Origin: a virus
Taxonomy: Duplodnaviria > Caudoviricetes
Length of the DNA: 61,194 nucleotides
Virus record (IMG/VR): IMGVR_UViG_3300047388_000109
Span: 1-61,194 of that record
Strand: one strand, 5' to 3'
The translations under genes were made by a program, and so were the position numbers. Shown here piece by piece: positions 10,976-17,200 of the stretch (within the stretch, counting starts at the first letter, position 1; the number at the start of each line of letters is the position of its first letter). The notes beneath the pieces are model-generated. The model was not told where the DNA came from, searched no databases, and was given only the letters and a program-made list of their open reading frames with translations.

Positions 10976-11060
10976 GGTTCAGTAAACCACTATGGAGCTG
11001 GTTCGGCCTGTAAAGCCGACGTCTCTGACTCGCAGAGTTCGATTCTCTGCTGGACCACCA
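10976..11060 (+). tRNA. tRNA-Tyr(GTA)
   Basis: GGTTCAG/CTGGACC acceptor, TCGGC-CTGTAAA-GCCGA, TTCGA T-loop, CCA. Confidence 0.85.
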
Positions 11061-11065
11061 TCAAC

Positions 11066-11118
11066 GGGGGCGCAACGTCGCTCCCTCCTCCCGACGTGAC
11101 CGCAAGGTCTGCGTCCCC
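11066..11118 (+). ncRNA. three-way-junction RNA exposing CCUCCUCC
   Basis: GGGGCGCA/TGCGTCCC, ACGTCG/CGACGT and GACC-GCAA-GGTC stems. Confidence 0.4.
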
Positions 11119-11166
11119 ACCCAACATTTCCGCTACCTGCATTGGCGTGGACGGAGAGAGGGAAGT

Positions 11167-11571
11167 ATGGCAGTGACCTTGAAGAACGGCGACCGCCTGA
11201 AGCTGGAGCGGTGCGGCCCGATCCCCGAGGCGCGGTTCAACGGGGGCTTCAAGCTGACCCGGGGCCGCTCGAAGGACGGCAAGTTCAAGTCGACCTACTG
11301 CTACATCGACACGCGCGAGCTGCGCGCCTCGAAGGGCAAGGAGCAGTGGACCCCGTTGGCGGTCTTCCGCTGGTACAAGGGGGTCTTGCAGAGCATGCTG
11401 GACTTCGGTGTGACGCATGGCTGGAAGAAGTTCGCCGAGCAGCGCGAGGGCGTGCCTGTGTCAGAAAAACCACAGGAGCCTGCGGTGCGCGGTCAAAAAC
11501 GCTTGACAGGTTCCAAGAAGGAGAGCAGAATCGCTCCCTTGCAGTTGAGCCACAGCACGGATGCCGCGTAA
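11167..11571 (+). CDS. hypothetical basic protein
   Basis: GGAGAGAGGG RBS; phage-like codon usage. Confidence 0.65.
   Translation: MAVTLKNGDRLKLERCGPIPEARFNGGFKLTRGRSKDGKFKSTYCYIDTRELRASKGKEQWTPLAVFRWYKGVLQSMLDFGVTHGWKKFAEQREGVPVSEKPQEPAVRGQKRLTGSKKESRIAPLQLSHSTDAA
11503..11538 (+). promoter_or_regulatory. rrn-like sigma70 promoter of the tRNA operon
   Basis: TTGACA-N17-CAGAAT, GC-rich discriminator CGCTCCC, upstream A-tract. Confidence 0.7.
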
Positions 11572-11591
11572 GCCAAAGGGAAAAGTGCTAT

Positions 11592-11646
11592 GCACCGGAG
11601 CCCAACCGGTGTCGCGGACGCAGAGCGGTGGCATGTTCTTTTAACA
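11592..11646 (+). promoter_or_regulatory. boxB-like hairpin plus boxA-like antitermination element
   Basis: GCACCGG/CCGGTGT hairpin, then TGTTCTTTTAACA (rrn boxA is TGCTCTTTAACA). Confidence 0.5.
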
Positions 11647-11724
11647 ATTCGGGCATCATCGAAGCGTCTTCCTGCACGGCGCGCCGGGCCGGGGTGGGCG
11701 GATGCTTCGATGATGTCAGAACAT

Positions 11725-11800
11725 GGGGTTGTAGCTCAATTGGGAGAGCACCTGCCTTGCAAGCAGACGGTTGTCGGTTCGATGCCGACCTTCTCCACCA
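11725..11800 (+). tRNA. tRNA-Ala(TGC)
   Basis: canonical cloverleaf, CCA. Confidence 0.92.
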
Positions 11801-11809
11801 GTATTGTAT

Positions 11810-11894
11810 TGCGGGTTAGCGAGTAGTGGTACCTCAGGAGGCTCATAACCTCCCGCGAACGCCGACGCAGGTTCGATTCCTGCACCCGCAACCA
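11810..11894 (+). tRNA. tRNA with CAT anticodon (Met/fMet-like), enlarged variable region
   Basis: TGCGGGT/ACCCGCA, GGAGG-CTCATAA-CCTCC, CCA. Confidence 0.85.
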
Positions 11895-12008
11895 GAGCAA
11901 GGCCCCGGATAGCTCCGGGGTAGCCGGGTAGCTACCGGACGCGCCCCTTGGAGGGGCACTGGGCCAAAGTGGAACTGGGTTTTGCGACCCCCACAGGCCA
12001 AGTACACA

Positions 12009-12100
12009 GGAAGGTCCACCCGAGGGTTGGCGACGGGCGCTGTCTCGAAAACAGTTGGGCTTCGATGCCGTGGGAGTTCGATCCTACCCACCTTCCGCCA
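12009..12100 (+). tRNA. tRNA-Ser(CGA)
   Basis: long V arm, G discriminator, CCA. Confidence 0.85.
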
Positions 12101-12105
12101 GTTAT

Positions 12106-12182
12106 TGTCGTCAAGCACATACGGCATGTGCAATGGCTTGATAAGCCATCGGCAGGAGGTTCGAATCCTCTGGCGACAACCA
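12106..12182 (+). tRNA. tRNA-Ile(GAT)
   Basis: ATGGC-TTGATAA-GCCAT, CCA. Confidence 0.85.
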
Positions 12183-12247
12183 GTACACACGAAGAGCCGG
12201 TCGACCGGCACGGGGCGGACTGATCATCCGCTCCGTTTACTTACAAC

Positions 12248-12323
12248 GGGCCCGCATGTTCCGTAGCGGCGACAGCGCCTCCAAAGCGTGGTGTGGGGAG
12301 TGCAACTCTCTCCGGGCTTGCCA
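12248..12323 (+). tRNA. tRNA-Trp(CCA)
   Basis: CTCCAAA loop, GGGCCCG/CGGGCTT, atypical T-loop TGCAACT. Confidence 0.75.
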
Positions 12324-12389
12324 GTACAATGTGGGGCGGCTCGCAAGAGCAGCGCGGGGTTGTGAGACTCTACGCCCCGCGCCTTATTC

Positions 12390-12465
12390 GTCTCGTGATG
12401 CAAATGGTACAGCATCCAGTCCTTCAAACTGGCGTACGTGGGTTCGATTCCCCGACGGGACACCA
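12390..12465 (+). tRNA. tRNA-Glu(TTC)
   Basis: CCAGT-CCTTCAA-ACTGG (C33), CCA. Confidence 0.8.
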
Positions 12466-12470
12466 ACAAC

Positions 12471-12546
12471 GCCTCCGTGGTATACCGGAAGTGCGGCGGT
12501 CCTCTAAACCGTATCGAAGCGGGTTCGATTCCTGCCGGAGGTTCCA
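12471..12546 (+). tRNA. tRNA-Arg(TCT)
   Basis: GCGGT-CCTCTAA-ACCGT (C33), A20, CCA. Confidence 0.8.
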
Positions 12547-12585
12547 CACATGAACGCGTACACACGACAGCGGTTCCACCTCAGA

Positions 12586-12660
12586 TGGGGCGGAGCCAGA
12601 TGGGACGGCAGGGGCCTTTGAAGCCTCTATGACTCGGTCCGATTCCGAGCGCCCCTTCCA
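12586..12660 (+). tRNA. tRNA-Gln(TTG)
   Basis: GGGGC-CTTTGAA-GCCTC, CCA. Confidence 0.85.
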
Positions 12661-12664
12661 CAAC

Positions 12665-12739
12665 ATCGCCGTAGCCTAGCGGATAGGCCCCGCCCTCCGA
12701 AGGCGGCTGACGCTGGTTCGATTCCAGTCGGCGGTTCCA
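12665..12739 (+). tRNA. tRNA-Arg(CCG)
   Basis: CCGCC-CTCCGAA-GGCGG, CCA. Confidence 0.88.
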
Positions 12740-12744
12740 ACAAC

Positions 12745-12821
12745 GGGCCCTTCGTTCAACGGAACAAGGACAGCACGCTACGAACGTGCAAATCGGGGTT
12801 CGATTCCCTGAGGGCCTTCCA
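12745..12821 (+). tRNA. tRNA-Arg(ACG)
   Basis: GCACG-CTACGAA-CGTGC, CCA. Confidence 0.88.
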
Positions 12822-12824
12822 AAT

Positions 12825-12901
12825 TGCTCTGTGGCCGAAGGGTAGATGGCAGCGGACTTTTAATCCGATTGGCGTAGGTTCGAGTCCTACCAGAGCAACC
12901 A
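12825..12901 (+). tRNA. tRNA-Lys(TTT)
   Basis: CGGA-CTTTTAA-TCCG, CCA. Confidence 0.88.
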
Positions 12902-12906
12902 GATTC

Positions 12907-12983
12907 GCCTTTGATCCGTTCTAGGGAACGGCCCCGCCTTGTAAGCGGGTGACGGCAGGTTCGAATCCATGCCAGAGGCTCCA
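12907..12983 (+). tRNA. tRNA-Thr(TGT)
   Basis: CCCGC-CTTGTAA-GCGGG, CCA. Confidence 0.85.
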
Positions 12984-12991
12984 GTTTCAAA

Positions 12992-13066
12992 GCGGGTGTG
13001 GTCTAGTGGCTGGGCGTCAGCCTTCCAAGCTGTTCCACGCAGGTTCGACTCCTGTCACCCGCTCCA
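12992..13066 (+). tRNA. tRNA-Gly(TCC)
   Basis: GCGGG start, CTTCCAA loop, TCCA end. Confidence 0.92.
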
Positions 13067-13071
13067 ACAAC

Positions 13072-13145
13072 GCACTGATGGCAGAGAGGCCATGCACCCG
13101 CCTGCAAAGCGGTCGACGTCGGCTCGAATCCGGCTCAGTGCTCCA
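13072..13145 (+). tRNA. tRNA-Cys(GCA)
   Basis: CTGCAAA loop, U discriminator, CCA. Confidence 0.88.
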
Positions 13146-13207
13146 AGTAAGGCGGCAGACGGGTTCGACTCCCGTACTCATTAGTGTAACGGACGCACTC
13201 CGCCGCT
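13146..13207 (+). ncRNA. circularly permuted mini tRNA-like RNA (YrlA-module-like)
   Basis: T arm precedes D arm; closed by GGCGG/CCGCC; no anticodon loop or CCA. Confidence 0.6.
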
Positions 13208-13214
13208 CTTCAAT

Positions 13215-13299
13215 GGTGTGCATAGTGTACTGGCGCGCAAGCTGTGCATCTCGCCCTGTGAAGGCGAGGGTGTGGGTTCGATCCCCACTGTACACCCCA
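13215..13299 (+). tRNA. tRNA-His(GTG) with enlarged D loop
   Basis: G-1:C73, TCGCC-CTGTGAA-GGCGA, CCA. Confidence 0.88.
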
Positions 13300-13454
13300 A
13301 GCTGTACCTGAACGCCAGATGCCGGGCGGGGACCACAACTCGCGCGCCGGCTGTGTGGTGCGGGCAGGGAAAGTCGGCAGCACGAAGTCTCGTGTGCAAG
13401 CTGCGCGCCTCGTGCGTGCAAGGCAGTCACGCAGTGTGCTGCTGCATGAACATT

Positions 13455-13530
13455 GCATCTCCAGCTGACCAAGTGACAGCGGCGGTCTGAAAAACCGCAG
13501 AGCGTGGCGCGATACCACGGTGATGCACCA
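13455..13530 (+). tRNA. tRNA-Phe(GAA)
   Basis: GCGGT-CTGAAAA-ACCGC; atypical T loop CGCGATA; CCA. Confidence 0.8.
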
Positions 13531-13534
13531 GACA

Positions 13535-13622
13535 GGTAGGTTGGCAGAGAGGCCGATTGCAGCGCTTTGCTAAAGCGCCAACCGTAACAGGTTCAGTGGT
13601 TCGACTCCACTACCTACCGCCA
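13535..13622 (+). tRNA. tRNA-Ser(GCT)
   Basis: GCGCT-TTGCTAA-AGCGC, V arm, GCCA. Confidence 0.9.
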
Positions 13623-13682
13623 GCTCCACTACCCAAGGCCACCCGAAAAGATGGTGTGGATCAAGAGCCTTGGAAGATCAAT

Positions 13683-13759
13683 TCCGAGTGAGCAGCCAAG
13701 GTGTTTGCATCTGACTGTTAATCAGACCTCGCGTGGTTCGATCCCACGACTCGGAGCCA
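13683..13759 (+). tRNA. tRNA-Asn(GTT)
   Basis: TCTGA-CTGTTAA-TCAGA, GCCA. Confidence 0.9.
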
Positions 13760-13831
13760 GCATCAACGTCCGGTGTGAATCGCGAGCGACGCGCGCAGAT
13801 GCTCGTGGTCGGCTCCTCCGGGCACCTACGC

Positions 13832-13906
13832 AGTCCCTTAGCTCAGAGGCAGAGCGGTCTCCTTACAAGTGACGGGTCGGGGTTTCGAAATCCTCAGGGA
13901 CTACCA
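13832..13906 (+). tRNA. tRNA-Val(TAC)
   Basis: CTTACAA loop, AGTCCCT/AGGGACT, CCA. Confidence 0.88.
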
Positions 13907-13912
13907 ATCAGC

Positions 13913-14006
13913 TGTCCGTAGCACTGGGTGCGGGCCGGCCTTATACACCGGCGAGAGCGGGCGGACGGCCTGCGACGGCACGGATCGTTACCGTGGCGGA
14001 CTACCA
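13913..14006 (+). tRNA. atypical tRNA-Ile(TAT) with long variable arm
   Basis: GCCGG-C-CTTATAC-A-CCGGC, GCGGGC/GCCTGC V stem, CACGG/CCGTG T stem, CCA. Confidence 0.65.
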
Positions 14007-14011
14007 ACAAC

Positions 14012-14085
14012 GGGTTCATAGCAAAGTGCCTATGCCCTCGGCTCTTACCCGAGTGACCTTGGTTAAAATCCAAGTGAACCCACCA
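14012..14085 (+). tRNA. tRNA-Lys(CTT)
   Basis: CTCGG-CTCTTAC-CCGAG; T loop TTAAAAT; CCA. Confidence 0.82.
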
Positions 14086-14131
14086 ACAGAAGGCTCTAAT
14101 GGCCTGTGCCATCGCACCAGAACAAAACATC

Positions 14132-14207
14132 GCGGCATTAGCTCAATCGGAAGAGCGGCGGACTGTCTATCCGCAGGCAACCGGATCGAAACCGGTATGT
14201 CGCGCCA
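14132..14207 (+). tRNA. tRNA-Asp(GTC)
   Basis: GCGGA-CTGTCTA-TCCGC, GCCA. Confidence 0.88.
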
Positions 14208-14215
14208 AGATCAAT

Positions 14216-14293
14216 CAGGGATTAGCTCAGCCCGGCCAGAGTATTCGCTTTGGAAGCGAAAAGCCGAAGGTTCAAATCCTTCATCCCTGACCA
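14216..14293 (+). tRNA. tRNA-Pro(TGG)
   Basis: TTCGC-TTTGGAA-GCGAA, TTCAAAT T loop, CCA. Confidence 0.9.
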
Positions 14294-14298
14294 TCAAT

Positions 14299-14382
14299 GC
14301 CCCATTGGTGAAATGGCAGACACACTGCGCTTAGAACGCAGCGCCTTACGGCATCGCGGTTCGAGTCCGTGATGGGGTACCA
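14299..14382 (+). tRNA. tRNA-Leu(TAG)
   Basis: CTGCG-CTTAGAA-CGCAG, V arm, CCA. Confidence 0.9.
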
Positions 14383-14411
14383 AACGCAGGATAAAAAAGG
14401 GAATTATATAC

Positions 14412-14440
14412 TTGACTCCAGAGCCGTTTTGAGGGATAAT
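14412..14440 (+). promoter_or_regulatory. sigma70 promoter with -35 inside the left TIR
   Basis: TTGACT-N17-GATAAT. Confidence 0.7.
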
Positions 14441-14468
14441 CTCTACTCATAAACGGAGTCCATTGACC

Positions 14469-14564
14469 ATGAACGTAGTTCTCGCCTACCGTCCGAAGCC
14501 AAAGACGAAGCCCGCGAAGAAACGCCAGCGGGCGCGCAAGAAATTACAGAAGAATGAAGCCTGA
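14469..14564 (+). CDS. small basic peptide (MNVVLAYRPKPKTKPAKK...)
   Basis: 31-aa ORF after GGAG; overlaps the mom start. Confidence 0.45.
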   Translation: MNVVLAYRPKPKTKPAKKRQRARKKLQKNEA

Positions 14565-15120
14565 CTGCCCCACCTTCGATAAATCCTGGCGCGCAGCGTG
14601 TCAGGTTGTTGCCGTAGAACGCGGCGACGTGGACGGCATGATCCGGCGACACTACATCGGGAAATGGCCCGGCGTGTGCGTCTTGATTCTGGCGATGAAG
14701 CGCGCTGATAGCTTCCTCGGCGTGATCGTGTTTGCTCTCCCGCCGCGCGAAACGTCCAAGCGATACGGCGCCAAAACTTGGGAGCTTGCCCGCCTTTGGC
14801 TTGACGACTCCGTGCCGCAGAATGCAGAAACGTGGCTTATTGGTCGCGCCGTCCGCTACATTCGACAGCATCATAAAGCGGTGCAGGCTCTCGTTTCCTA
14901 CGCCGATCCTTCGGCCGGCCATGCGGGCACGATCTACAAGGCGGCGAACTGGATAGCCGACGGGCGCACGGACGAAGGCCGCAAGACGCCGCGATGCGAC
15001 TATGCCGACGCGGTGACTGGCAAGCGTTACAGTCGGCGCGGGCACGTCCCGGACGGCGCAACAATCAAGCGGATTCCTCGGGTATCGAAGCATCGGTTTA
15101 TCTACCGTCTTGCCGCTTGA
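14554..15120 (+). CDS. mom: Mom-family adenine modification enzyme (GNAT fold)
   Basis: RRHY, WELARLWL, NAETWLIG, VSYADP..GHAGTIYKAANW, KHRFIY. Confidence 0.85.
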   Translation: MKPDCPTFDKSWRAACQVVAVERGDVDGMIRRHYIGKWPGVCVLILAMKRADSFLGVIVFALPPRETSKRYGAKTWELARLWLDDSVPQNAETWLIGRAVRYIRQHHKAVQALVSYADPSAGHAGTIYKAANWIADGRTDEGRKTPRCDYADAVTGKRYSRRGHVPDGATIKRIPRVSKHRFIYRLAA

Positions 15121-15154
15121 AATGGCAAAATGGAATCATGTATATAATTCCCAT

Positions 15155-15192
15155 AAAAAAAGGGCGACTCCGTTTCCGGGGCCGCCCTTTTT
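15155..15192. terminator. bidirectional intrinsic terminator
   Basis: A-tract + GGGCGACTCCG/CGGGGCCGCCC stem + T-tract between convergent units. Confidence 0.8.
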
Positions 15193-15232
15193 GCATTGCA
15201 CGTCCGCTACCGTAGCGCCACGAGGTTCGCGC

Positions 15233-15625
15233 TCATAGCGGGTAACGCTTGCCGCGCCTGTCGAACCACGCGGTCACGACATCGTCCTTGTCCAGCAGGT
15301 CCCATGACCCACTGTCGCTGCGACGATGCAGCAGCATCAGCGACGGGTGCCATCCCGTGGTGGTCGTGATGGTGCCGCGCCGAACGAACTTCTCGCCGCT
15401 GTCGTAGGTGGTGGTCACCTCCACGCGCGTGTCGGTCCTGTAGAACCTGCGCTGCGCGTCTGTGGTCTCCGGCTCGACGAACCTGTCGCCGTACTGCGCG
15501 CGGAACCGATGGACCATCTGTTGGTACGGCGAATACTGGCCGATGATGACCGGCTTCAATGGCCTGTTTGCCGAACCAAGCTGACCGCATTCGCAGCGGC
15601 CCGGGCCTGTGTAGTTGCATGACAT
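15233..15625 (-). CDS. hypothetical protein
   Basis: AGGAG RBS; RRGTITTTTGWHP motif. Confidence 0.7.
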   Translation of the reverse strand: MSCNYTGPGRCECGQLGSANRPLKPVIIGQYSPYQQMVHRFRAQYGDRFVEPETTDAQRRFYRTDTRVEVTTTYDSGEKFVRRGTITTTTGWHPSLMLLHRRSDSGSWDLLDKDDVVTAWFDRRGKRYPL

Positions 15626-15643
15626 CGTGCTCTCCTGTGAATC

Positions 15644-15683
15644 GCCAGCAAGTCGCTGGAGCCTGCCTTGCGGCAGGGTTCAG
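15644..15683 (-). repeat. intergenic two-hairpin motif, copy 1
   Basis: CTGCC-GCAA-GGCAG plus CCAGC-GACTT-GCTGG on the minus strand. Confidence 0.55.
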
Positions 15684-15687
15684 CCAC

Positions 15688-15975
15688 CTACCTCCTCATC
15701 TCTCCCAACATCTCCGACATCAGCGTCTCGATGTCCTCCAGCGTCTTGGCAATCTTCGCCATGTAGAACTCAGGCGACTCGACCTTCGCGCCGAACGGGT
15801 CGGGGATGAACGCATCGGACAGCTTCAGCTCGCCGCCCTTGGGCGACAGGCCGAGAACCGGCAGGCCCATGAACTCGCCGACGACCGGCGTCTTGTCGAA
15901 TGCCGCCTCGAAGTCGGTGGTGCTGACCTGCCCGGCGGGGTGCGTGACGTCCTTGTGTGCCGCTCCTCTGATCAT
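15688..15975 (-). CDS. hypothetical protein
   Basis: GAGGAG RBS, ATGA overlap. Confidence 0.65.
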   Translation of the reverse strand: MIRGAAHKDVTHPAGQVSTTDFEAAFDKTPVVGEFMGLPVLGLSPKGGELKLSDAFIPDPFGAKVESPEFYMAKIAKTLEDIETLMSEMLGEMRR

Positions 15976-16118
15976 GACTGCTCCTCTGCGGCCTCGGCCG
16001 CTGCTTGTTGGACCGAATCTCCGCGCAGCTCGTCCGCCACTTCGGCGGGATCGAGATGCAGCGGCTCGATTGTGTAGCGTTGCTCCTGAGAGCTGAGACC
16101 GCGCTCGTAACGGTTCAC
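15972..16118 (-). CDS. hypothetical protein (48 aa)
   Basis: GGAGGAG RBS; GTGA and ATGA overlaps at both ends. Confidence 0.55.
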   Translation of the reverse strand: MNRYERGLSSQEQRYTIEPLHLDPAEVADELRGDSVQQAAAEAAEEQS

Positions 16119-16321
16119 AGCTCCTCCGGGTGCGATGCGCGGGCAACGCTGTCGTACGCGCAGCCGTTCGCGCTGTTTCGATAGACGGAGATGGTAGCCG
16201 GCGCGCAGTGGTGGTGGATCAGCTCGTCGCGCACCTGCTTCGCCGTGAAGAACTCAGCGAAGTTGACCACGTCCACGATTATCGTTCCAACGCGGACGTC
16301 AAACTTGCGAAAGTGGCTCAT
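16115..16321 (-). CDS. hypothetical protein
   Basis: ATGA overlap. Confidence 0.65.
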   Translation of the reverse strand: MSHFRKFDVRVGTIIVDVVNFAEFFTAKQVRDELIHHHCAPATISVYRNSANGCAYDSVARASHPEEL

Positions 16322-16635
16322 GACTTCCCCTTCGGTGCCGCCAGACGGCCGGCGCTGATGAACTTGACCAGCTCGCCGAGGAACCGCTCGACACCCTCGA
16401 CGTACATAACGCCATCGCCCAGACTACGGCCGGCGTCACGACTGAGCGCTTGGAACTTGACCCCGATGGGCCCGAAGTCGTAGGTGATGATCACCTCCGG
16501 CTTGGTGGTTCCCGGCGTCATGCCGTATAGCACGCCGGCAGGCTTCGCGCCTTCGGGTTGGTTCGCGACGTCCAGCTTGTTCGCTTCGAGCACTGCTGCA
16601 ACGGTGTTCAGATACAAGTCGTGAAGGTTGATCAT
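16318..16635 (-). CDS. hypothetical protein
   Basis: GGAGG RBS. Confidence 0.65.
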   Translation of the reverse strand: MINLHDLYLNTVAAVLEANKLDVANQPEGAKPAGVLYGMTPGTTKPEVIITYDFGPIGVKFQALSRDAGRSLGDGVMYVEGVERFLGELVKFISAGRLAAPKGKS

Positions 16636-16646
16636 GATGGCCTCCG

Positions 16647-16970
16647 TTAGATGCAATCACCATCGCCGGCTGGCATGGTGTACTTCACTTTCATGAACTT
16701 CGCCGTGTACCAGAGCCCGCCCTGCGACTCTGGCCTGTGGTGCTCAGTCACGCACTTAACCTCGACCACCGCCCATACGCGGCCATTCTTCGAGAGGTGC
16801 GGCGCGAACGGTCGCGCACAGCAGTGCCACCCGGGCCTGAACGCGAAGCCCGGCGTGAGGTGTTCTTCTGCAACCAGCCACTCGCCAACCGGGATGCGTT
16901 GACCGCGATTGATGAACAGTGGACCGAGCGAGCCGTCAGTTCGTTGGCGAATCAGCTTATAGGCGATCAT
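16647..16970 (-). CDS. conserved phage hypothetical protein
   Basis: AYKL...GPLFIN...RPGWHC...RPESQGGLW motif. Confidence 0.75.
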   Translation of the reverse strand: MIAYKLIRQRTDGSLGPLFINRGQRIPVGEWLVAEEHLTPGFAFRPGWHCCARPFAPHLSKNGRVWAVVEVKCVTEHHRPESQGGLWYTAKFMKVKYTMPAGDGDCI

Positions 16971-17200
16971 GATCCATCCCCAATCAACCGGGCGGGCTTG
17001 AGCGCATTAGCCAGTGCGGCGCACTTTTTGCACGTCACGCCAACACCCTGATCGTGCAGGACGAGCCACTTACCGCGACGTTTCATCATCCAGCAGTTGT
17101 CGCTGGCGTACGGATTGTGACCGCACAGCGAAGCCTCAGCGCTGCGTTCCTTGACGTGAATCTTGTGTCCGCCGTTTGCGCGGACCTTGTATGTGTCCAT
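16967..17200 (-). CDS. small Cys/His-rich (Zn-finger-like) protein
   Basis: KIH...LCG...VTCKKC; AGGAG RBS. Confidence 0.65.
   Translation of the reverse strand: MDTYKVRANGGHKIHVKERSAEASLCGHNPYASDNCWMMKRRGKWLVLHDQGVGVTCKKCAALANALKPARLIGDGS

What the first reader, a model, noticed from the sequence alone, without database searches (positions are those of the whole stretch)
14391..15160. Transposase-less IS1595-like cassette carrying a Mom-type DNA-modification gene
Seen: GGGAATTATATACTTGACTCCA (14399-14420) and the reverse complement of 15131-15152 (GGGAATTATATACATGATTCCA) match at 20/22 positions. Both ends are flanked by the same 8-mer ATAAAAAA. The 754 bp inside hold only a promoter whose -35 lies in the left TIR, a 31-aa basic peptide and a Mom-like ORF. 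Removing the cassette puts the terminator directly after the last tRNA. Established: IS1595-family elements make 8-bp duplications in AT-rich targets and have transposase-less derivatives with passenger genes; Mu Mom modifies adenine and blocks restriction. Inference: a self-expressing, mobile anti-restriction module moved in trans by a host transposase, which would also be read through from the tRNA operon promoter.
Basis: partly seen in the sequence, partly recalled or inferred. Interest (0 to 1): 0.85.

Follow-up and report, generated by a model that had tools for sequence, protein, structure and literature searches.

The report
Transposase-deleted IS1595 transposon carrying Mom
A soil phage carries a small jumping-gene cassette that has lost its own transposase but still delivers a self-expressed Mom-type DNA-modification gene, and its intact relatives spread similar anti-restriction genes among phages and bacteria.

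Summary
Window 14399-15152 is bounded by 22-nt inverted repeats (20/22) and by the only two ATAAAAAA octamers in the 61-kb phage. The same ends bound a 2057-bp element in other viral contigs. That element encodes an IS1595-family transposase, a small conserved ORF and a C5 DNA methylase. The window's first 77 nt are identical to it, after which about 1 kb (the transposase) is missing. Across 152 fetched loci, 58 of 90 facing end pairs carry matching 8-bp flanks, against 0 at shifted positions. A related phage in another soil metagenome has the empty site: tRNA-Leu, one ATAAAAAA, then the terminator. Two sediment metagenomes hold the same Mom module at about 99% identity, with other flanks and an undeleted upstream region. 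The passenger gene matches Pfam Mom, and Mu Mom (8bv8) is its best structural match. Not shown here: expression, Mom activity, and whether this copy moved after losing its transposase. Passenger-carrying IS1595 elements are known. A phage-borne lineage carrying Mom or methylases did not turn up in my literature searches.

The parts
10976..14382 (+). Array of 20 tRNA genes upstream of the cassette (context). It includes tRNA-Gly(TCC) at 12992-13066 and ends with tRNA-Leu(TAG) at 14299-14382.
   Evidence: ARAGORN
14391..14398 (.). Left copy of the 8-bp target-site duplication ATAAAAAA.
   Evidence: the only two copies in the window are the two flanks. The X2 contig shows a single copy at the empty site.
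14399..14420 (+). Left terminal inverted repeat (IRL).
   Evidence: It is identical to the transposase-proximal end of the L012 element.
14412..14440 (+). Promoter-like site TTGACT-17-GATAAT, the transposase promoter of the parent IS, with its -35 hexamer inside IRL.
   Evidence: A -10-like hexamer lies at this spacing at 19 of 32 transposase-proximal ends, against 2 of 32 distal ends.
14463..14564 (+). Leader ORF of 33 aa (31 aa from the ATG at 14469). It fuses the transposase start (MTMN) to the C-terminal 29 aa of the IS's conserved small ORF2. Its stop overlaps the Mom start by 11 nt.
14473..14475 (.). Deletion junction (ACG microhomology) where about 988 bp of the parent are missing: the transposase gene and the 5' part of ORF2.
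   Evidence: Window 14399-14475 is 100% identical to L012 6096-6172, and 14478-14518 is 93% identical to L012 7161-7201. X3 and X4 contigs break or branch here and run on into transposase and ORF2 sequence.
14554..15120 (+). Passenger gene: a Mom-family GNAT of 188 aa.
   Evidence: Pfam PF25680 2e-28; PHROG 1384 5e-32; PDB 8bv8 by sequence at 2.6e-8; Foldseek top hit 8bv8 at 7.8e-11
15131..15152 (-). Right terminal inverted repeat (IRR).
   Evidence: It is identical to the distal end of the L012 element.
15153..15160 (.). Right copy of the 8-bp target-site duplication ATAAAAAA. It is also the A-tract of the terminator.
15157..15192 (.). Hairpin with an A-run before it and a T-run after it. This is the terminator of the tRNA array, and probably also of the converging minus-strand genes.
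   Evidence: (I3). In X2 it follows tRNA-Leu directly.

Best explanation
Window 14399-15152 is a non-autonomous, transposase-deleted derivative of an IS1595-family 'transporter IS'. Its passenger is a Mom-family GNAT.

Shown by the calls:
- The parent type has 22-nt terminal inverted repeats and a promoter whose -35 lies in the left repeat. It carries a transposase gene, a small conserved ORF2 and, before the right repeat, a cargo gene.
- The element inserted into the octamer ATAAAAAA, which is the A-tract of the terminator behind the phage's tRNA array, and duplicated it.
- About 1 kb between two ACG triplets is missing. This removes the transposase and fuses its first codons to the tail of ORF2.

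Inferred:
- The IS promoter and transposase ribosome-binding site now drive a 31-33-aa leader whose stop overlaps the Mom start. Mom would therefore be expressed from the cassette itself and by read-through from the tRNA array.
- Mom, like Mu Mom, transfers glycine from Gly-tRNA(Gly) to N6 of adenines in double-stranded phage DNA, giving 6-NcmdA and protection from restriction.
- Because both ends are intact, a cognate transposase supplied by a host or a co-infecting phage could move the cassette again.
For: Ends and target duplication:
- The repeats and the two flanking octamers are confirmed.
- Family-wide, 58 of 90 facing end pairs over 152 loci plus the window have flanking 8-mers with at most 1 mismatch (52 are perfect). 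None do at outward shifts of 8, 16 or 24 bases. The flanks are 83% A+T.

Autonomous relatives:
- The L012 and L010 elements (2057 bp) encode a transposase (PF12762 3e-42, PF12760, NF033547 at 189.6 bits), ORF2 and a C5 methylase.
- The two copies are 96% identical, share nothing outside the element, and have different duplications.

Deletion:
- The window matches L012 across both sides of the junction.
- ORF2 is conserved in 17 paired elements.

Empty site:
- X2 record 12 covers 14131-14398 with 3 differences, then runs on with letters equal to 15161-15168. After a shorter loop it matches 15180-15193 at 13 of 14.

Same cargo elsewhere:
- X3 covers 14475-15160 (5 differences) and X4 covers 14473-15152 (3 differences), each with a different right flank.
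- The sequence upstream of 14473 in X4 equals ORF2 of L012 over the 30 letters shown.

No transposase in the window.

Mom identity:
- Searches support it.
- The residues aligned with Mu H58, Y59, R111, D149 and Y159 are invariant in 11 sequences, and Mu S124 aligns with T93.
- The mechanism comes from PMC13219725 (abstract and sections 10 and 13 read).

Promoter conservation.
Against: - No RNA or protein evidence for expression was obtained.
- This clade is 17 aa shorter than Mu Mom at one gap in the C-terminal part (columns 209-225 of A2), which probably lies in Mu Mom's required HTH-like insertion. The chemistry may therefore differ.
- No NCBIfam model matches the protein.
- The empty site rests on one contig at depth 5.7, of which only 30 run-on letters were shown.
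- No close relative of the phage was found in GenBank phages or IMG/VR.
- The deletion junction was found nowhere else, so mobility of this exact copy is unproven.
- Two viral-contig elements (L015, L016) lack matching flanks.
Confidence: 0.86

Rival explanations
1. The structure is the same, but the full-length transposase-bearing Mom element inserted into the phage and the transposase gene was deleted afterwards in place. On this reading the cassette has never moved without its own transposase and is a decaying, domesticated insertion rather than a module mobilised in trans.
For: - A 24-mer across the deletion junction has 0 exact matches in metagenome contigs and viral contigs.
- A nearly identical (about 99%) undeleted form exists in X3 and X4, so the deletion is recent.
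- Among the Tnp-less cassettes in viral contigs, the window, L011 and the L020/L021 pair each have their own inner structure.
- L013 and L021 show one-ended decay in phage genomes.
Against: - A sister Tnp-less Mom cassette with one and the same inner left junction lies at two unrelated loci. L020 and L021 share 630 nt at 89.5% and no flanking similarity.
- Three related 115-121-bp derivatives with different duplications lie in one MAG.
- Together these show that the family does mobilise Tnp-less derivatives.
Confidence: 0.45
2. The passenger is a Mom-family GNAT that does not make Mu-type 6-NcmdA. It may use another acyl donor or acceptor, or it may be inactive, so the cassette would not be an anti-restriction module.
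For: - Identity to Mu Mom is only 26%.
- The residue aligned with Mu R151 is serine.
- This clade is 17 aa shorter at one gap in the C-terminal part, probably within Mu's HTH-like insertion. Deleting that insertion abolishes Mu Mom activity (PMC13219725 section 13).
- Model confidence is lowest at residues 119-150.
Against: - The Pfam and PHROG Mom profile hits are well above threshold.
- Mu Mom is the top structural hit, four or more orders of magnitude in E-value ahead of other GNATs.
- Five of the seven residues named in the Mu structure are invariant and a sixth is Ser to Thr.
- 47 columns are invariant among 9 relatives at 53-78% identity, which argues for purifying selection.
- Sister elements carry DNA methylases in the same slot.
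Confidence: 0.2
3. The inverted repeats are phage regulatory or recombination cassettes (promoter/terminator modules shuffled by homologous recombination), not transposon ends.
For: - The left repeat contains a promoter hexamer.
- L021 is flanked by a 27-bp direct repeat rather than by an 8-bp one.
Against: - 8-bp duplications of unrelated sequence occur at 58 sites, with 0 in the shifted controls.
- A transposase is encoded between the same ends in 31 elements.
- The elements occur across many bacterial phyla.
Confidence: 0.02

Closest known systems
IS1595-family transporter IS (tIS). Probably the ISNwi1 group, whose end consensus I recall as ggnnatTAT. That assignment is recalled, not tested.
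   Same: - 8-bp target duplication in A+T-rich DNA and terminal inverted repeats starting GG.
- In full-length relatives, one transposase with an N-terminal zinc ribbon and a DDE_Tnp_IS1595 domain.
- Passenger genes inside the ends.
- Family features: passage read in PMC8101967. The tIS concept, restricted to IS1595 and IS66: passage read in the TnCentral preprint.
   Different: - This copy has lost the transposase.
- It sits in a phage genome.
- Its cargo is a Mom-type DNA modifier.
- The lineage has a conserved small ORF2 that matches no Pfam or NCBIfam model.
Bacteriophage Mu Mom (PDB 8bv8), with its regulator Com.
   Same: - GNAT fold, and Mu Mom is the best structural and sequence match in PDB.
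- The counterparts of H58, Y59, R111, D149 and Y159 are conserved.
- A small upstream ORF overlaps the mom start.
   Different: - 26% identity.
- S124 is replaced by T and R151 by S, and this clade is 17 aa shorter at one gap in the C-terminal part, probably in Mu's HTH-like insertion.
- The upstream peptide has no cysteines and is not Com-like.
- Expression would come from an IS promoter rather than from Mu's Dam/C/Com control (that control is recalled).
MITEs (miniature inverted-repeat transposable elements).
   Same: Non-autonomous, retains both ends and a target duplication, and depends on a transposase supplied in trans. True 110-350-bp MITEs of the same family exist.
   Different: At 754 bp it carries an intact promoter and a functional-looking cargo gene, so it is a cargo cassette rather than a non-coding MITE.
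Orphan DNA methyltransferases as flexible or mobile genes of phage pan-genomes (PMC7468147, passages read).
   Same: Anti-restriction DNA-modification genes that vary between otherwise similar phages.
   Different: That paper names no vehicle of this kind. Here the vehicle is a defined transposon with ends, a target duplication and a transposase.

Membership tests
IS1595 family (as a non-autonomous derivative) | Encodes a DDE_Tnp_IS1595 transposase with an N-terminal zinc ribbon. | tested here: not met
   No PF12762 match anywhere in the window. The gene is deleted in this copy. Elements with the same ends do encode it: L012 has PF12762 3e-42, PF12760 1.9e-7 and NF033547 at 189.6 bits. 31 of 58 paired elements have a transposase aligned over more than 250 aa.
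IS1595 family (as a non-autonomous derivative) | Ends identical to those of transposase-bearing members. | tested here: met
   Window 14399-14475 is 100% identical to L012 6096-6172, and 15128-15152 is 100% identical to L012 8128-8152.
IS1595 family (as a non-autonomous derivative) | 8-bp target-site duplication. | tested here: met
   ATAAAAAA lies on both sides and nowhere else in the window. The X2 empty site has a single copy. 58 of 90 family pairs have matching flanks, against 0 in the shifted controls.
IS1595 family, ISNwi1 subgroup | Match to ISfinder reference elements and the subgroup's end consensus. | not testable with these tools
   ISfinder is not available. The end consensus is recalled from memory. 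The two papers that mention ISNwi1 were not opened.
Mom family (Pfam PF25680) | Profile match above the curated cut-off. | tested here: met
   99.9 bits against 27.1, covering residues 29-186. PHROG 1384 'Mom-like DNA modification protein' at 5e-32. No NCBIfam model matched.
Mom family (Pfam PF25680) | GNAT fold closest to Mu Mom. | tested here: met
   AF2 model with pLDDT 81.6 and pTM 0.72. Foldseek ranks 1 and 2 are 8bv8_B and 8bv8_A (E 7.8e-11 and 3.7e-9, TMq 0.62). The next GNATs come at E 8e-5 or worse.
Mom family (Pfam PF25680) | Residues shown to matter in Mu Mom (H58, Y59, R111, S124, D149, R151, Y159) and the HTH-like insertion. | tested here: inconclusive
   H33, Y34, R80, D118 and Y128 are conserved. 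T93 stands for S124 and S120 for R151. This clade is 17 aa shorter at one gap in the C-terminal part, probably within the HTH-like insertion (residue roles from PMC13219725 section 13). I mapped the numbering from the crystal chain, with an offset of 9 that I inferred.
Mom family (Pfam PF25680) | Forms 6-NcmdA on dsDNA from Gly-tRNA(Gly) and protects the DNA from restriction. | not testable with these tools
   This needs expression plus LC-MS or SMRT sequencing and a restriction challenge.

The most novel reading that the evidence does not exclude
A lineage of IS1595-family transporter ISs acts as a shuttle for self-expressing DNA-modification (anti-restriction) genes: Mom, C5 methylases and N6 methylases. 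It moves them between bacteria and phages and from phage to phage. Once an element has landed in a phage, loss of the transposase fixes the cargo as a compact module under the IS promoter. In this phage the module landed behind a tRNA array that includes tRNA-Gly, the co-substrate class that Mu Mom uses. Cargo and co-substrate could therefore be co-transcribed. I treat that placement as most likely coincidental.
Probability: 0.5. Interest if true: 0.75.

Novelty: new variant of a known kind. Interest (0 to 1): 0.64.

Why it matters
Insertion sequences appear uncommon in deposited phage genomes. Only 2 of 50,697 GenBank phage records, both unannotated fragments, hold even a distant relative of this transposase.

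Here a defined transposon lineage is seen in at least 14 uncultivated viral contigs. In most cargo-bearing viral copies it carries DNA-modification genes: C5 methylase, D12 N6 methylase or Mom. That gives a concrete, testable vehicle for the known patchiness of orphan methylases and Mom-like genes among phages. It also gives a route by which counter-defence genes cross between bacterial chromosomes and phages.

The pieces needed for a transposition assay are all identified: the ends, a candidate partner transposase (L012), and an empty and a filled site. The conserved ORF2 is an uncharacterised component of the IS.

Tried and rejected
- Megablast of window 13000-17000 against GenBank phages found no match.
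- The neighbouring 130-aa protein (15233-15625, minus strand) found no relative in viral contigs.
- A 25-mer from the 3' end of tRNA-Leu had 0 hits in viral contigs.
- The left-flank 25-mer had 0 hits in metagenome contigs. No empty site could therefore be found in assembled collections. It came only from laid contigs.
- The deletion-junction 24-mer had 0 hits in metagenome contigs and viral contigs.
- Composition gives no foreign-DNA signal. The cassette is 58% G+C, like its surroundings.
- Pfam and NCBIfam gave nothing for the leader peptide or for ORF2.
- The simple terminator scan missed the 15157-15192 hairpin and listed a probably spurious site inside Mom.
- Mom relatives L019 and L022-L028 have no recognisable ends, so they are ordinary phage genes.
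- Parts of the window without cover in X2-X4 are not used as evidence.
- Literature searches found no paper on an IS-borne Mom or on IS1595 elements in phages. This covers only the held library, and Siguier et al. 2009 on IS1595 was not available.
- Supplements are closed. Supplementary Figs 40-42 of PMC13219725 (alignments and mutants of active homologues) could bear on the R151 and insertion question.
- I considered and rejected the idea that the leader peptide is a Com-like regulator. It has no cysteines and is a fusion remnant.

Full report
**Setting.** The window is a whole IMG/VR virus record of 61,194 bp, estimated 94% complete. It is a tailed phage with a large terminase and a portal protein. 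Twenty tRNA genes lie on the plus strand at 10976-14382. The genes downstream of the finding are on the minus strand.

**Observation.** The two 22-nt arms (14399-14420 and 15131-15152) pair at 20 of 22 positions. They are the only matches to that 22-mer in the window at up to 3 mismatches, and 0 of 100 shuffles gave any match. ATAAAAAA occurs only at 14391-14398 and 15153-15160 in the whole window, against an expected 0.14. A TTGACT-17-GATAAT site lies at 14412-14440. A 31-33-aa ORF at 14463-14564 overlaps the start of a 188-aa ORF at 14554-15120. A strong hairpin with a T-run lies at 15157-15192.

**The ends are IS1595-family transposon ends.**
- An exact-pattern scan of viral contigs found the 22-mer in 16 stretches.
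- In L012 the two ends lie 2057 bp apart and are flanked by TTTTTTTT on both sides.
- Between them lie three genes: a 310-aa protein with DDE_Tnp_IS1595 (3e-42) and Zn_ribbon_IS1595 (NF033547, 189.6 bits against a cut-off of 75); a 55-aa ORF2; and a 298-aa C5 DNA methylase.
- L010 holds the same element at 96% identity, with TATTTTTG flanks and no other similarity to L012.
These span Acidobacteriota, Alpha-, Beta- and Gammaproteobacteria, Planctomycetota, Dehalococcoidia and others.

**Family-wide target duplication.**
- Over the 152 fetched loci plus the window, 90 facing end pairs lie 40-7000 bp apart. Of these, 58 have flanking 8-mers with at most one mismatch, and 52 are perfect.
- None match when the compared octamers are shifted outward by 8, 16 or 24 bases. 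The duplications are 83% A+T.
- Of the 58 elements, 31 encode a transposase aligned over more than 250 aa (53-100% identical to L012's), 4 have fragments, and 23 have none (48-2384 bp).
- These features fit the published description of the family: 8-bp duplications, one transposase, and a zinc finger plus DDE domain (PMC8101967, passage read). They also fit the 'transporter IS' concept, which is restricted to the IS1595 and IS66 families (TnCentral preprint, passage read).

**How the window copy arose.**
- Window 14399-14475 is 100% identical to the first 77 nt of the L012 element: the end, the promoter, the ribosome-binding site and ATGAAC.
- The next similarity, 14478-14518, is 93% identical to L012 7161-7201, inside ORF2. 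About 988 bp, the whole transposase and the 5' part of ORF2, are therefore missing. The junction lies at an ACG shared by both sides (14473-14475).
- ORF2 (motif ...LDAIADxVLAYRPKPK followed by a basic tail) is present in 17 paired elements and about 10 unpaired ones.
- No PF12762 match exists anywhere in the phage.

**Empty site and parent (Logan contigs; one contig each).**
- In run X2, a different soil sample, a 690-nt contig covers 14131-14398 with 3 differences.
- It then continues with letters equal to window 15161-15168, a shorter inner hairpin (8 letters against 11), and letters matching 15180-15193 at 13 of 14. That reads as tRNA-Leu, one ATAAAAAA, then the terminator.
- X2 also covers other parts of the 5-kb stretch at 90-100%, so it holds a relative of this phage.
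- In sediment runs X3 and X4, contigs cover 14475-15160 (5 differences) and 14473-15152 (3 differences). Their right flanks differ from the window.
- In X4 the 30 letters shown before 14473 equal ORF2 of L012.
- In X3 the left end (14398-14475) runs on into the transposase start as in L012.
- The simplest reading is an undeleted transposase-ORF2-Mom element at other sites. The left-end contigs cannot be tied unambiguously to the Mom copy, because sister elements share that end.

**Is this copy mobile without its transposase?**
- Against: the junction 24-mer is absent from both collections scanned.
- For, at family level: L020 holds a 638-bp Mom cassette (76% aa identity) with CATTTAAG duplications and only 13 nt of left end. 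L021 holds the same cassette with the same inner left junction (630 nt at 89.5%) in unrelated flanks.
- Also for: three related 115-121-bp derivatives with different duplications lie in one MAG.
- I rate in-place deletion and trans-mobilisation as about equally likely for the window copy.

**Promoter.** At the transposase-proximal end, 19 of 32 elements have a -10-like hexamer 16-18 nt after the hexamer in the repeat, although the spacers are unrelated. Only 2 of 32 distal ends do. This supports a real transposase promoter, which in the window now heads the leader and Mom. Expression itself was not tested.

**Cargo.**
- The 188-aa protein matches Pfam Mom and PHROG 1384.
- By sequence it matches Mu Mom 8bv8 (2.6e-8).
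- Its model (pLDDT 81.6) has 8bv8 as the top two Foldseek hits, well ahead of other GNATs.
- In an 11-sequence alignment with Mu and Salmonella phage SP-031 Mom, the counterparts of Mu H58, Y59, R111, D149 and Y159 are invariant. S124 is T, R151 is S, and this clade is 17 aa shorter at one gap in the C-terminal part, probably within Mu's HTH-like insertion.
- According to PMC13219725 (abstract and sections 10, 13 and 38 read), Mu Mom transfers glycine from Gly-tRNA(Gly) to N6-adenine of dsDNA. All three E. coli isoacceptors work, including TCC. R111, S124 and R151 are essential, and so is the insertion.
- Mu-type chemistry here is therefore likely but not assured.
- GenBank phages hold 307 records with relatives, all below 60% identity.

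**Cargo census.**
- In viral contigs, elements or remnants carry the following:
  - C5 methylases: L010/L012, L011 (Tnp-less, 1050 bp, AAAAAAAA flanks), L013, L015 and L017.
  - A D12 N6 methylase: L016.
  - Mom: the window, L020 and L021.
  - An ASCH protein beside a weak, below-cut-off Lar-like hit: L018.
  - Unknown small proteins: L003, L006, L014 and L017b.
- Of 34 cargo ORFs of at least 100 aa from bacterial copies, 6 match N6_N4_Mtase and 2 match HSDR_N_2. Single ORFs match HNH, P63C, TnpB-like, DUF1643, nucleotidyltransferase/HEPN and ASCH.
- The copies are not independent, so I claim only a trend.

**Verdict.** The kind of element (an IS1595 tIS and its non-autonomous derivatives) is known. 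Its occurrence in phages with Mom or methylase cargo was not found in print in my searches.

Noticed in passing
L012 7089-7256; window 14478-14561; others listed: A conserved small ORF2 (about 45-80 aa, motif LDAIADxVLAYRPKPK followed by a basic tail) follows the transposase in this IS lineage. It matches no Pfam or NCBIfam model, and its function is unknown.
   Followed up: partly
L021 4600-5300: This Mom cassette has an intact right end, but its left end is replaced. It is flanked by a 27-bp direct repeat instead of an 8-bp duplication, and no mechanism explains this yet.
   Followed up: partly
L004 270-317: A 48-bp element consists of only the two ends back to back, with perfect GCTCAGGT duplications. 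It is either a minimal derivative or a deletion product.
   Followed up: no
L017 2914-4920 and 5763-6047: Two family members lie 843 bp apart in one 98-kb viral contig. One is a 2007-bp transposase plus C5-methylase element. The other is a 285-bp mini-element with a 77-aa ORF. Each has its own duplication.
   Followed up: no
window 10976-14382, with tRNA-Gly(TCC) at 12992-13066: The phage has 20 tRNA genes in one array, including a tRNA-Gly. Mu Mom uses Gly-tRNA(Gly) as its donor, and the cassette sits directly behind the array. This is probably coincidence.
   Followed up: partly
window 15153-15192: The target octamer is the A-tract of a hairpin that has an A-run before it and a T-run after it, lying between converging transcription units. 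The duplication recreates the A-tract next to the hairpin, so the terminator stays intact.
   Followed up: partly
window 15193-15640 versus run X2: The relative in X2 has no cover over the 130-aa minus-strand ORF next to the terminator, but resumes at 15640. This neighbouring gene may be variable between the two phages. Absence of cover is not proof.
   Followed up: no
A1 members (genome contigs elements): One bacterial copy carries a TnpB-like ORF (OrfB_IS605 plus a Cas12f-like TNB domain) between the IS1595 ends, and another carries a nucleotidyltransferase/HEPN pair. The tally does not say which member each one is.
   Followed up: no
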